Source: a phage
Length of the DNA: 57,325 nucleotides
Assembly: GCA_025497365.1 (NCBI GenBank)
Contig: GCA_025497365.1_4955.1
Direction: 5' to 3' (one strand)
Made by a program: the position numbers. This document shows, in pieces, positions 27,001 through 30,000 of this stretch (position 1 is its first letter; every line of letters begins with the position of its first letter).

Positions 27001-30000
27001 AGTATCACCGTGTTGAACCTGAACACCGCTAACCAGGTATATAACGTAACAGTTGCGGACTATGTAAAACAGAACGGTGTGTTGTCTGAAAACTTCTTTG
27101 AAAAACTGTGGAATCAGGAATATACACCAGAAGGTGTTAAGTTCGTGGCTAACGTTCTTATGCTGGACTGGAAACTGATTGGTGAAGATGACAAACCGGA
27201 ACCATTCAGTGTTGAAGAAGCTGTTGAACTGTTAAGTGATGAACGTTTTGGTCAGGTGATCTACAGTCGTGTTATTCAGTTTGCAATTAATTCCGCATTT
27301 TTCCAGGACGAATGGGAAAAACAGATTGAAAAAAACTGATCGACTTCCTCTTGTGGAACGATAAGACAGACGGGGACGACCTGGACTGGGTTACACAAGG
27401 GGCGGCTGCACGTGGTATATCTGTTCCGGTTGTTGTACAGAAACGTCCTAAACTGCGACCTGATGCTGTTTTTTACTGGAATGCTTTTTTGGATTTGATA
27501 GGTGCTGATTGGGTTGCTTGTGAGCGGTATGCGCGGGTGTATAACGTTGATGTACAGTTCCTATGGAAATTATTGGTAGCATTGCGGTCTGCACGTGTTG
27601 TCGAGATGAAGAAAAATAAACATAAGCCCGGTTAGTTCCGGGCTTTTTCATTTACGTAGTCGAGGATTGCAGGAGAGTATTTAAACCACTCTGTAGCACC
27701 GTCAAAGCCTTTGAGACGCGCATTAAGTTCACGGAAGACCTTGTGTACCTCTTGTTCCAGTTTGTAAGCATCAGCGCCCTGTGGAAACGGGTACGACACG
27801 AGTTTAACCACGGGGTGTGTTGTTTCGCGTTGTAGTTGTCGTAGTCGCCGTTTTAAGTCGTTTGTGATACCGACTTTAAGCAGAGTAGGGCACTTTTTAT
27901 CGTCAGCTAACACGTAGAGTGTACCGGGTTCTGACGGGTTAAAACCTGTTTCTGCACACTGGGGACAACCAGCTTTCATTGATGTGTGATTATTAGGTAT
28001 TTGTTCAAACACACCGTGTTCAGGGCAGATGATTTTTACAGGGGTGGAATTGTTAACATACTCCATCAACGAATAGTCGTAACGGTCCCTGTGAACTTCG
28101 CGAGCACGAGTAATGAATTCTTCGGAGGATAAACGTCTTTGTTCAGACAATTGTTCCCAAGCACATTGTAGGCAACCTGCTTTTTGCTGCAAGTGACTAT
28201 ATGGACGTTGTTCAAACATTCCGTGTATCGGACAAACGATTTGAACGTTAGAACGAGCGTTCACATACTCCACCAATGAGTAATCGTAACGATCCCCGTG
28301 AATTTCACGAGCGCGAGTGATAAATTCTTCAGTGGTTAATTGTTGATTTCCTGCACAGAATAAACACTTGCGTCCTTTTAAATGATTATTAGGAATTTGT
28401 TCAAACACCCCGTGTATAGGGCAGATGATTTTCACAGGTGTGCGCCAATTCACATACTCCACTAGCGAGTAATCGTATTTGTGCCCATGAACTTCACGGG
28501 CACGTGTGATAAACTTCTCTGTGGTTAAACGTTTCCTACTCATCTTATTTGTCGCTTTTTAACACAGCCCAGATTAACGCACCTAACCAACCGATGAATG
28601 TCCAACCCGCAAAGATGTTAAGTAAAATAATTGCTGTTTGTTGTTTATGTTTAACGTTAATCGCGATGAGTGCTGGGATCAGATATACAGCAGCGATTAA
28701 GAAAAGAATGATGAAAGTAGCCATTTTGTAACCCTCCTTTGTTTTGATGTTTGTAGGTTACACGTCTTTGTGTAATCCGTCAAGAATTATTTTAAACATT
28801 TGTCGCTTTTTAGACCCGTGTTAAACTGTGTACATGCTTCGTGAAAAGGTTAACCACAATGGCACAGTATCCGATTGATATAAAGATAGACACTGGTAAC
28901 GCTGACAGAAATCTTAACAGTCTTAATAACCAGTTAGACCAAACAGCTAATTCTGCAAAATCTGCTGCACAAGCGGCAAACACTTTATCAAAAAGTGAAC
29001 AGCAAGCTGCAAAATCTGCACAAGTAATGGCGTCAAATACTGGTAACGCTACATCATCTTTAAAGACGATGGCATCTGGCGTAAATCTTGCAACAAATGC
29101 CGTTCGTGGTTTTATGGCAATAGGTGCGGTGTCTTCTGCTATTGAGTTAGGAAAAGCGTTTATTGTTGCGGGTGATGCAGCTAATCAACTCGAAGCTCGT
29201 ATTGCAAGATTGACCGGGAGTACATCATCAGCCGAACAAACATTTCAAACACTCGCGGATATTGCCTCTAAAACAGGTGGTGGTCTTGCTGATACTGAAC
29301 GTTTATGGGAAACCTTATCGTCATCATTAAAGGATAGCGGCGCAACAAACGATCAGATATTACGATTAACTGAAACACTTCAAAAAATAGGTCGTGTTGG
29401 TGGTTCATCTGCTGAAGAAATGTCTAACGCATTACGTCAGTTTGGTCAGTCAATTTCATCTGGTGTAGTTCGTGCAGAAGAATTTAACAGCATTGTTGAA
29501 CAGATGCCAGAACTGGCAAGACAGATGGCTGCTGGTTTAGGTATTTCAATGGGTGAGTTACGTCAGCAAATGCTGAATGGTGAACTTACAGCGGAACAAG
29601 CATTGAACGCTATCATTCGTCAAACACAAAATGTTGATGAAGAATTTAGCAAATTGCCACGGTCTTTAGATCAGGCCACAAATTCGTTATCTGTATCGTT
29701 AGCCACGTTTGTTGCAAGCATGAATGATGTGACTGGAGCATCAAATCTTGCTGTAAATGCTATTGATACACTTACAGGTTTCATCAATAAATTAGGCGAT
29801 GATTCAACAACAACTGCTGATAAATTGTGGTCAATAGCTGGCGTAATATCTAAGTTACAACCTGGTGCTATCGGAGCATCCCTTGCCGATCTGGTCTGGT
29901 CAAATGATGATGTAAATAATGCAAAAGCGTACAATGACCAGGTTGACAGATTTGTTAAAGCATCTGCTGCTGGATACGAACAAGCTAAAAAAAACCGTGA

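What the first reader, a model, noticed from the sequence alone, without database searches (positions are those of the whole stretch)
27325..27360. Slippery heptamer A AAA AAC at the end of the tail chaperone gene
The chaperone ORF ends A AAA AAC TGA; a -1 shift at this heptamer enters a frame that is open for 100 further codons to 27635, giving the G/GT pair that is conserved in long-tailed phages.
Basis: partly seen in the sequence, partly recalled or inferred. Interest (0 to 1): 0.45.

Follow-up and report, generated by a model that had tools for sequence, protein, structure and literature searches.

The report
Tail chaperone G/GT −1 frameshift site
This is the usual programmed −1 ribosomal frameshift site of a long-tailed phage's tail-assembly chaperone gene; it is real and deeply conserved, but it is already annotated in closely related phages (Sasha, 9NA), so it is ordinary.

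Summary
ORF 26917-27339 ends GAA AAA AAC TGA. The in-phase heptamer A_AAA_AAC lies at 27330-27336. The −1 frame is open from 27330 to the TAG at 27633-35, which is 99 sense codons after the shift. In this phage the shift window is exactly the 7 nt of the heptamer, because a −1-frame TGA sits at 27327-29 and the 0-frame TGA at 27337-39.

- One PHROG family (8233, tail assembly chaperone) matches both ORFs contiguously across the junction.
- The pair lies between the tube gene and the tape-measure gene.
- The −1 extension is under purifying selection (dN/dS 0.07-0.26, against 0.62 or more in the other frames).
- AAAAAAC followed by a stop is invariant in 32 related loci. The in-phase heptamer persists in Morganella, Proteus and Vibrio phages whose G protein is only 25-38% identical.
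- The TTG start is specific to this clade. 9NA has no start codon at all in the T frame.

GenBank records of Sasha, Solent, 9NA and AVIO78A already annotate the joined frameshift CDS.

Possible flanking stimulators (an upstream GGGAG-like site and a downstream CCUC/GGGG stem-loop) recur in relatives, but they are weak or statistically unproven in this window.

Verdict: already known; low interest.

The parts
26917..27339 (+). Gene G: tail assembly chaperone, 140 aa, the product of standard decoding
   Evidence: ORF list. phrog_8233 'tail assembly chaperone' E = 6e-48, profile positions 5-140. Homologues carry the precomputed Pfam label PF27119. AlphaFold model pLDDT 83. Viral fold hits are mostly annotated tail or tape-measure chaperones.
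27330..27336 (+). Slippery heptamer A_AAA_AAC, in phase with gene G
   Evidence: Invariant in 32 of 32 related loci and in 8 of 8 sampled Morganella, Proteus and Vibrio phages. The codon supplying the first A encodes E, T, V or I in different lineages but always ends in A.
27337..27339 (+). 0-frame stop TGA immediately 3' of the heptamer
   Evidence: A stop (TGA or TAA) directly follows the heptamer in all 32 close relatives. In the distant phages one sense codon intervenes.
27327..27329 (+). −1-frame stop TGA immediately 5' of the heptamer, which limits the possible shift window to the 7-nt heptamer in this clade
   Evidence: Specific to the Sashavirus clade (ATT GAA instead of ATC GAA). Other relatives have overlap windows of 25-46 nt.
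27336..27635 (+). T extension: 99 codons in the −1 frame plus the TAG stop, translated only as the C-terminal part of GT
   Evidence: phrog_8233 profile positions 141-250, E = 1e-29; phrog_3817 'tail chaperonin'; Pfam Phage_TAC_18 below threshold. dN/dS 0.07-0.26 in this frame against 0.62 or more in the other two.
26917..27635 (+). GT fusion coding region: 239 aa, with predicted junction ...QIEKN|LIDFLLWNDK...
   Evidence: The length equals the joined CDS annotated in Sasha (719 nt) and, by homology, in 9NA (231 aa). The AVIO78A record places 'ribosomal slippage' inside the same heptamer.
27351..27353 (+). TTG that automatic annotation uses as an independent start for T; probably just Leu codon 146 of GT
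   Evidence: No purine-rich SD upstream (ACTTCCTC). The homologous codon is CTG, CAG or AAG in other lineages.
27313..27318 (+). Weak Shine-Dalgarno-like TGGGAA 11 nt upstream of the heptamer; a possible degenerate 5' stimulator
   Evidence: Relatives have GGGAG or GGGAGGA here. It is the strongest or near-strongest anti-SD match in their G ORFs, although GAG is a rare Glu codon (6-26%). In the window the duplex is only −4.2 kcal/mol and 34 of 392 windows are at least as strong.
27347..27402 (+). Candidate 3' stimulatory stem-loop: arm CCUCUUGUG (27347-55) pairs with CACAAGGGG (27394-402), starting 10 nt after the heptamer
   Evidence: For:
- Predicted.
- Rare codons CTC (5% of Leu) and GGG (12% of Gly) in the two arms are invariant across the family.
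- One compensatory pair, U-A to C-G.
- Divergent members re-pair CCUCC with other G-runs.

Against:
- Stability is not above shuffles in the window (z = −0.7).
- The synonymous-site dip is not significant.
27624..27655 (+). Intrinsic-terminator-like hairpin plus T-run that spans the T stop codon and ends the G/GT transcription unit
   Evidence: The same element is annotated as a terminator in Sasha and Solent.

Best explanation
The window comes from a Sashavirus/9NA-like siphophage. Gene G (26917-27339) encodes the tail assembly chaperone.

Most ribosomes decode ...GAA AAA AAC and terminate at TGA, giving the 140-aa G protein. A small fraction slip one base backwards on A_AAA_AAC (27330-27336). 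In that slip, tRNA-Lys re-pairs from AAA to AAA and tRNA-Asn from AAC to AAA. These ribosomes then read CTG ATC GAC... in the −1 frame for 99 more codons, giving a 239-aa GT protein with the junction ...EKN-LIDFLLW....

By analogy with lambda gpG/gpGT (established knowledge; Atkins et al. 2016 review, PMC5009743), G and the G part of GT coat the tape-measure protein. The T part recruits the tube protein. The fixed low GT:G ratio is set by the efficiency of the frameshift.

Shown here: the anatomy, the protein-coding nature of both frames, the continuity of homology across the junction, the conservation of the heptamer, and the lack of a conserved independent start.

Inferred: that ribosomes actually shift here, the efficiency, and the role of flanking elements. 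A_AAA_AAC is a low-efficiency motif in E. coli that IS1 nevertheless uses (PMC4066793), which fits a product needed in small amounts.

Possible modulators, none of them proven:
- the stop codon directly after the heptamer;
- a weak SD-like TGGGAA 11 nt upstream, which is a strong GGGAG in most relatives;
- a CCUC/GGGG-closed stem-loop starting 10 nt downstream.
For: - Anatomy.
- phrog_8233 matches G at profile positions 5-140 and the −1 extension at 141-250. The tube gene lies upstream and the TMP gene downstream.
- dN/dS in the T frame is 0.07-0.26, against 0.62-4.05 in the other frames.
- AAAAAAC plus a stop is invariant in 32 loci whose G proteins go down to 50% identity, while flanking codons vary.
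- The in-phase A_AAA_AAC and a homologous T frame are retained in Morganella, Proteus and Vibrio phages at 25-38% identity.
- The codon before the heptamer changes amino acid (E, T, V, I) but keeps the third base A, including the rare ATA.
- No start codon exists in the T frame of 9NA and SP069, and starts at codon 15-54 elsewhere.
- A joined '−1 frameshift' CDS is annotated in Sasha, Solent, 9NA and AVIO78A.
- It is the only genuine in-phase heptamer in the window that opens a long −1 ORF.
- A_AAA_AAC is a proven, low-efficiency E. coli frameshift motif in IS1.
Against: - I found no direct experimental evidence (protein, mass spectrometry or reporter) for this phage or any close relative.
- A_AAA_AAC is among the inefficient heptamers in E. 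coli.
- No stimulatory element is demonstrated in the window. The downstream hairpin is no more stable than shuffles (z = −0.7). It has one compensatory pair, probably a single evolutionary event, and a 10-nt spacer, longer than the 6 nt I recall for dnaX (from memory, not checked here).
- The upstream SD-like site is weak here.
- The clade has a TTG at T codon 5, which two depositors annotated as an independent start.
- No solved-structure match confirms the chaperone fold.
Confidence: 0.88

Rival explanations
1. Transcriptional slippage instead of ribosomal frameshifting. RNA polymerase adds one extra A in the A7 run (27329-27335). Standard translation of that minority mRNA then yields GT with the junction ...EKK-LIDF....
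For: The site is a homopolymer run of 7 A. Bacterial RNA polymerases do slip on A or T runs (review PMC5009743). Sequence comparison cannot separate the two mechanisms, because both coding frames fix the phase of the run.
Against: - Documented productive bacterial slippage involves runs of about 9 A or T. Here the run is 7, and in the Klebsiella, Morganella, Proteus and Vibrio relatives it is only 6.
- What is conserved is exactly the ribosomal heptamer, including the C.
- The same A6C motif is listed as a proven case of frameshifting in an IS cluster (A_AAA_AAC_1); that the cluster is IS1 and the shift is ribosomal is from my own knowledge.
Confidence: 0.05
2. Two separate genes. T (27351-27635) is translated independently from its TTG start, as annotated in Bas82 and PDP46, and the heptamer is incidental.
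For: A TTG exists 5 codons after the junction in this clade. Automatic annotation calls it a separate 94-aa CDS.
Against: - There is no SD-like sequence upstream of the TTG (ACTTCCTC).
- The TTG is CTG, CAG or AAG in the other lineages. 9NA and SP069 have no start codon anywhere in the T frame, and others start only at codon 15-54, inside the conserved domain.
- The codons between the junction and the TTG are conserved as protein (L-I/T-D-F-L), and the PHROG profile match starts at the first residue after the junction.
- An incidental heptamer would not stay invariant at 25% protein identity.
Confidence: 0.04
3. P-site-only 'shifty stop' slippage. After AAC is decoded, peptidyl-tRNA-Asn waits with the TGA stop in the A site and slips −1 onto AAA. 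The product is the same, but the trigger is slow termination rather than tandem slippage.
For: A stop codon directly follows the heptamer in all 32 close relatives. Stop codons next to slippery runs are known to promote shifting (Weiss et al. 1987, listed in the reference list of PMC5009743; what that paper shows is from my own knowledge).
Against: In the distant Morganella, Proteus and Vibrio homologues a sense codon (TCA or TCG) separates the heptamer from the stop, yet the full heptamer is kept. A P-site-only mechanism would need only A_AAC, not the conserved upstream A_AA. This is a variant of the main explanation rather than a true alternative.
Confidence: 0.1

Closest known systems
Salmonella phage 9NA gp48/gp49 and Salmonella phage Sasha gp44/gp45 (also Solent and AVIO78A): tail assembly chaperone pairs annotated with a −1 frameshift
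   Same: These are orthologous genes at 80-97% nucleotide identity. They have the identical heptamer AAAAAAC followed directly by a stop, the same junction, and the same position after the tube gene.
   Different: In this window (and in Bas82) a reverse-strand endonuclease gene and a superinfection-immunity gene are inserted between GT and the tape-measure gene. The −1-frame stop directly abuts the heptamer in this clade only. T is 99 codons here against 90 in 9NA.
Phage lambda gpG/gpGT and the conserved G/GT frameshift of long-tailed dsDNA phages (Levin 1993; Xu, Hendrix & Duda 2004; reviewed in PMC5009743)
   Same: The gene order is tube, then G/GT, then tape measure. A −1 shift near the 3' end of G gives a C-terminally extended minor product. 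The logic of a fixed ratio of two chaperone forms is the same.
   Different: I detected no sequence similarity to lambda G or T. The heptamer is A_AAA_AAC rather than lambda's G_GGA_AAG (from memory). The shift site abuts the G stop codon rather than lying a few codons before it.
IS1 insA-insB' frameshift at A_AAA_AAC
   Same: It uses the same heptamer in the same host group. It is a proven, low-efficiency −1 ribosomal frameshift with no established stimulator, used to make a small amount of a fusion protein (PMC4066793).
   Different: It belongs to an unrelated gene system (a transposase). Here there are hints of flanking elements in relatives.
E. coli dnaX −1 frameshift cassette (SD-like element, A_AAA_AAG, 3' stem-loop)
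   Same: Most relatives carry an SD-like GGGAG 9-11 nt upstream of an A-rich heptamer and a predicted stem-loop downstream.
   Different: The last base of the heptamer is C, not G, which makes it far less shifty in E. coli. The SD-like site is degenerate in this window (GGGAA). The stem-loop is long-range (38-nt loop), starts 10 nt downstream, and is statistically unproven. The outcome is an extension, not a truncation.

Membership tests
Phage tail assembly chaperone G/GT programmed −1 frameshift | Two overlapping ORFs located between the major tail (tube) gene and the tape-measure gene | tested here: met
   The tube gene is at 25011-26468 (Phage_tube_2), G/T at 26917-27635, and TMP at 28841-31426 (TMP_3). 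Two reverse-strand genes (27632-28724) are inserted before TMP in this phage. Relatives without the insertion have TMP directly after T.
Phage tail assembly chaperone G/GT programmed −1 frameshift | [quoted passage not shown] | tested here: met
   G is in frame 1 and T in frame 0, with a 7-nt overlap.
Phage tail assembly chaperone G/GT programmed −1 frameshift | A canonical slippery heptamer X_XXY_YYZ, in phase, within the overlap | tested here: met
   A_AAA_AAC at 27330-27336 fills the whole overlap.
Phage tail assembly chaperone G/GT programmed −1 frameshift | The slip site and two-frame arrangement are conserved among diverged relatives | tested here: met
   32 of 32 loci with G proteins down to 50% identity, and 8 of 8 sampled phages at 25-38% identity.
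Phage tail assembly chaperone G/GT programmed −1 frameshift | The downstream ORF lacks its own conserved start and RBS and is protein-coding from the junction | tested here: met
   Starts are absent or lie at codon 15-54 outside this clade. dN/dS is 0.07-0.26 in the T frame. The profile match begins at the first residue after the junction.
Phage tail assembly chaperone G/GT programmed −1 frameshift | Sequence or fold relationship to recognised tail assembly chaperones | tested here: inconclusive
   - phrog_8233 and phrog_313 'tail assembly chaperone' match strongly.
- Pfam Phage_TAC_18 matches T at 21.5 bits, below the 27-bit cut-off.
- There is no PDB sequence hit.
- BFVD hits to annotated chaperones have E of 1e-3 to 1e-2.
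- PHROG names are annotations, not tested functions.
Phage tail assembly chaperone G/GT programmed −1 frameshift | Two products, G and GT, made at a fixed ratio and both required for tail assembly | not testable with these tools
   This needs protein analysis and genetics. I found no published data for the 9NA/Sasha group.
dnaX-type tripartite −1 frameshift cassette | Internal Shine-Dalgarno-like sequence about 10 nt 5' of the heptamer | tested here: inconclusive
   The window has TGGGAA with an 11-nt spacer, −4.2 kcal/mol, in the top 9% of G-ORF windows. Relatives have GGGAG or GGGAGGA at −6.5 to −10.2 kcal/mol, which rank at or near the top, and they use the rare GAG codon there. The test is confounded by a conserved Trp-Glu.
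dnaX-type tripartite −1 frameshift cassette | Stable stem-loop a few nucleotides (about 5-8; from memory) 3' of the heptamer | tested here: inconclusive
   A 9-bp stem (27347-55 / 27394-402) starts 10 nt downstream. Its z-score is −0.7 in the window and ranges from +0.5 to −3.6 in relatives. There is one compensatory pair. Rare codons in both arms are invariant. The synonymous-site dip is not significant (p about 0.2-0.4).
Transcriptional slippage site | Homopolymer run long enough for productive RNA polymerase slippage (about 9 A or T in documented bacterial cases) | tested here: not met
   The run is 7 A in the window and 6 A in the Klebsiella, Morganella, Proteus and Vibrio relatives. The threshold comes from PMC5009743.

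The most novel reading that the evidence does not exclude
In this phage family the G/GT frameshift signal may not be a bare heptamer. It may be a dnaX-like three-part cassette: an internal SD-like GGGAG 9-11 nt upstream, the inefficient heptamer A_AAA_AAC, and a stem-loop closed by CCUC/GGGG downstream. The cassette would be held in place by selection on otherwise rare codons (GAG, CTC, GGG), and its 3' arm would relocate when the usual partner is lost. The Sashavirus clade, including this window, would then have weakened the upstream element (GAG to GAA), which predicts a different GT:G ratio from 9NA.
Probability: 0.3. Interest if true: 0.35.

Novelty: already known. Interest (0 to 1): 0.15.

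Why it matters
Practically, it matters for annotation. Automatic pipelines (for example the Bas82, PDP46 and Klebsiella phage records) split this locus into two genes or miss T altogether. The correct products are a 140-aa G and a 239-aa GT made by a −1 shift at 27330-27336.

Biologically it adds nothing new in kind. It is a clean example in which the two flanking stop codons restrict the shift to exactly seven nucleotides. It also shows that an 'inefficient' enterobacterial heptamer has been kept unchanged from Vibrio phages to Escherichia phages. This family would therefore be a convenient natural series for asking how flanking elements tune a low frameshift rate.

Tried and rejected
- Enrichment of AAAAAAC in the window: not enriched, so it was rejected as evidence.
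- A second candidate frameshift, G_GGA_AAG at 50238: the ORF is spurious and nested in a 784-aa gene.
- Thermodynamic significance of a downstream structure in the window: z between +0.3 and −1.05 for five segments, so not significant.
- Covariation for the stem: one compensatory pair only, probably one event. Pair 63:108 is broken in 15 of 27 sequences.
- Synonymous-variability profile: the minimum of the whole gene lies just after the heptamer, but 22-40% of permutations do as well.
- Rfam scan: no known frameshift element. The only hits are sub-threshold leader-like matches caused by the terminator hairpin.
- PDB sequence and fold searches for G: no significant match.
- Scans of viral contigs for more distant relatives returned only the same nine loci.
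- Literature searches for experimental evidence in 9NA or Sasha-like phages found none. The 2019 J Virol paper on 9NA-like phages is not in the held library.
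Full report
**Observation.** ORF 26917-27339 (140 aa) ends ...CAG ATT GAA AAA AAC TGA. 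The heptamer A_AAA_AAC occupies 27330-27336 in the X_XXY_YYZ phase. The 0-frame stop is at 27337-27339. In the −1 frame the sequence reads GAT TGA AAA AAA CTG ATC..., with a stop at 27327-27329. That frame is then open to the TAG at 27633-27635, which gives 99 sense codons from CTG at 27336. The stretch in which a −1 shift can connect the two frames is therefore exactly the seven bases of the heptamer.

**Chance controls.** The string AAAAAAC is not over-represented in the window (21 found against 26.6 expected), so the heptamer alone proves nothing. However, of 64 in-phase slippery heptamers inside ORFs of at least 100 aa, only this one and one artefact open a long −1 extension. The artefact lies in a spurious ORF nested in a 784-aa gene.

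**What the genes are.**
- The upstream ORF matches phrog_8233 ('tail assembly chaperone', 271 positions) at profile positions 5-140 (E = 6e-48).
- The −1 extension matches the same profile at positions 141-250 (E = 1e-29). Homology therefore runs continuously across the proposed junction.
- The neighbours are a tail tube gene (25011-26468, Phage_tube_2) and a tape-measure gene (28841-31426, TMP_3).
- A predicted structure of G (pLDDT 83) has no significant match among solved structures.
- Among predicted viral structures, the hits outside the family are mostly annotated tail or tape-measure chaperones at marginal E-values.

**Relatives and existing annotation.** The window is a Sashavirus/9NA-like siphophage. 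It is 97% identical to Escherichia phage Bas82, about 95% to Salmonella phage Sasha, 80% to 9NA, and 73-75% to a group of Klebsiella phages. The GenBank records of Sasha, Solent, 9NA and AVIO78A already contain a joined CDS labelled as a −1 frameshift product. AVIO78A places the slippage inside the same heptamer. Bas82 and PDP46 annotate two separate genes, and several Klebsiella phage records miss T entirely. The 231-aa 9NA fusion protein is in UniProt.

**Comparative tests.** I collected 32 related loci, 27-30 of them distinct in sequence, with G proteins down to 50% identity.
- In every locus, AAAAAAC is followed directly by TGA or TAA, while the neighbouring codons vary.
- The TTG that could start T independently exists only in the window's clade and has no Shine-Dalgarno sequence. 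9NA and SP069 have no ATG, GTG or TTG anywhere in the T frame. All other lineages have their first one at codon 15-54, inside the conserved domain.
- The T frame shows purifying selection (dN/dS 0.07-0.26). The other two frames over the same DNA give 0.62-4.05.
- A protein-level search found far more distant homologues in Morganella, Proteus and Vibrio phages, with 25-38% identity in G. All eight that I examined keep the in-phase A_AAA_AAC, followed by one sense codon and then a stop. Their −1 frame encodes a recognisable T homologue (KKL...LDW...RG).
- The codon that supplies the first A of the heptamer encodes Glu, Thr, Val or Ile in different lineages but always ends in A, including the rare ATA. 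The probability is about 0.01 from the window's own codon usage.

Together these results make an incidental heptamer or an independently translated T very unlikely.

**Mechanism.** The best-supported mechanism is canonical tandem −1 ribosomal slippage on A_AAA_AAC, giving G (140 aa) and a minor GT (239 aa, junction ...EKN-LIDF...). In E. coli this heptamer is of low efficiency but measurably shift-prone without stimulators. It is the proven frameshift motif of an IS cluster, with no established stimulator (PMC4066793; the identification as IS1 is from my own knowledge). The much shiftier A_AAA_AAG is used by dnaX (PMC5009743). A low rate suits a GT product that, in lambda, is needed at about 1 per 30 G.

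Transcriptional slippage is the main mechanistic rival. Documented bacterial cases involve runs of about 9 A or T. This run is 7 A, and only 6 A in most relatives, and what is conserved is the ribosomal heptamer including its final C.

The stop codon that abuts the heptamer in all close relatives might add a 'shifty stop' contribution. It is not universal, because the distant homologues have a sense codon in between.

**Flanking elements: suggestive but unproven.**

*Upstream.* Most relatives have GGGAG or GGGAGGA 9-11 nt before the heptamer. This is the strongest or near-strongest anti-Shine-Dalgarno match in their G ORFs. It uses GAG, although GAG is only 6-26% of Glu codons in these phages. 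The window's clade has GAA there, giving a weak GGGAA (−4.2 kcal/mol, top 9% of windows in the ORF). The test is confounded by a conserved Trp-Glu.

*Downstream.*
- A stem CCUCUUGUG/CACAAGGGG (27347-55 / 27394-402) starts 10 nt after the heptamer.
- Its arms contain the codons CTC (5% of Leu codons) and GGG (12% of Gly codons), which are invariant in 30 of 30 and 28 of 28 sequences.
- There is one compensatory pair.
- The two divergent members that lost GGG pair the CCUCC arm with other G-runs.
- Morganella and Proteus phages fold into an analogous hairpin (Proteus z = −3.6).

*Against the downstream stem.*
- In the window it is no more stable than shuffled sequence (z = −0.7).
- One pair is broken in 15 of 27 sequences.
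- The synonymous-variability minimum sits right after the heptamer, but it is not significant by permutation (p about 0.2-0.4).
- Rfam has no matching family.

**Comparison with what is known, and verdict.** This is an orthologue of the already annotated 9NA gp48/49 and Sasha gp44/45 pairs. It is a member of the general G/GT frameshift class of long-tailed phages. All sequence-level defining features were tested and met. The biochemical features (two products at a fixed ratio, binding to the tape measure) cannot be tested here, and I found no published experiment for this group. It works like lambda G/GT, uses the IS1 heptamer, and in relatives resembles the dnaX cassette in layout. The finding is correct, already known and ordinary. 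Its main practical value is to correct annotations that split or omit T.

Noticed in passing
window 27632-28543 (−) and 28545-28724 (−): A reverse-strand gene for a T5orf172/MUG113 endonuclease with three DUF723 repeats, plus a superinfection-immunity (Imm) gene, are inserted between GT and the tape-measure gene. Bas82 has both. Sasha, Solent, 9NA, PDP46 and AVIO78A have neither. One metagenomic relative has only the endonuclease (L025) and another only Imm (L029). This looks like a mobile-element or moron insertion hotspot in the middle of the tail module.
   Followed up: partly
window 27624-27655: An intrinsic-terminator-like hairpin (AAGCCCGG...CCGGGCTT plus a T-run) has the T stop codon in its loop. 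It is scored on both strands and overlaps the 3' end of the reverse-strand endonuclease gene. It also produced a sub-threshold Rfam Trp_leader hit. G/GT therefore appears to be its own short transcription unit, separated from the tube gene (terminator at 26489-26506) and from the tape-measure gene.
   Followed up: partly
window 28841-31426; L002, L003, L030: Tape-measure length varies within this phage group. It is 861 aa here and 855 aa in Bas82, against 971 aa in Sasha, 9NA and the Klebsiella phages, and 1073 aa in one metagenomic relative. This predicts different tail lengths among close relatives.
   Followed up: no
window 26515-26778 (−): A small reverse-strand ORF (87 aa, phrog_27467, unknown function) occupies a variable slot between the tube gene and G. 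Relatives carry different ORFs of 51-207 aa there, or none. [quoted passage not shown]
   Followed up: no
window 29989-29995 and 30220-30226 (+): Two further in-phase A_AAA_AAC heptamers lie inside the tape-measure gene. The −1 frame closes after 1 and 7 codons respectively. Any slippage there would only give rare truncated tape-measure protein, so these are probably incidental.
   Followed up: no
window 50238-50244 (+): An in-phase G_GGA_AAG in ORF 50083-50385 appeared to open a 522-codon −1 frame. It is an artefact: the short ORF is spurious and nested inside the real 784-aa gene at 49458-51812.
   Followed up: yes
window 27600-27632 (+): The T domain of the Sashavirus clade has a lysine-rich C-terminal tail about 10 residues long (VVEMKKNKHKPG) that is absent from 9NA and the Klebsiella relatives. 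It overlaps the terminator hairpin.
   Followed up: no
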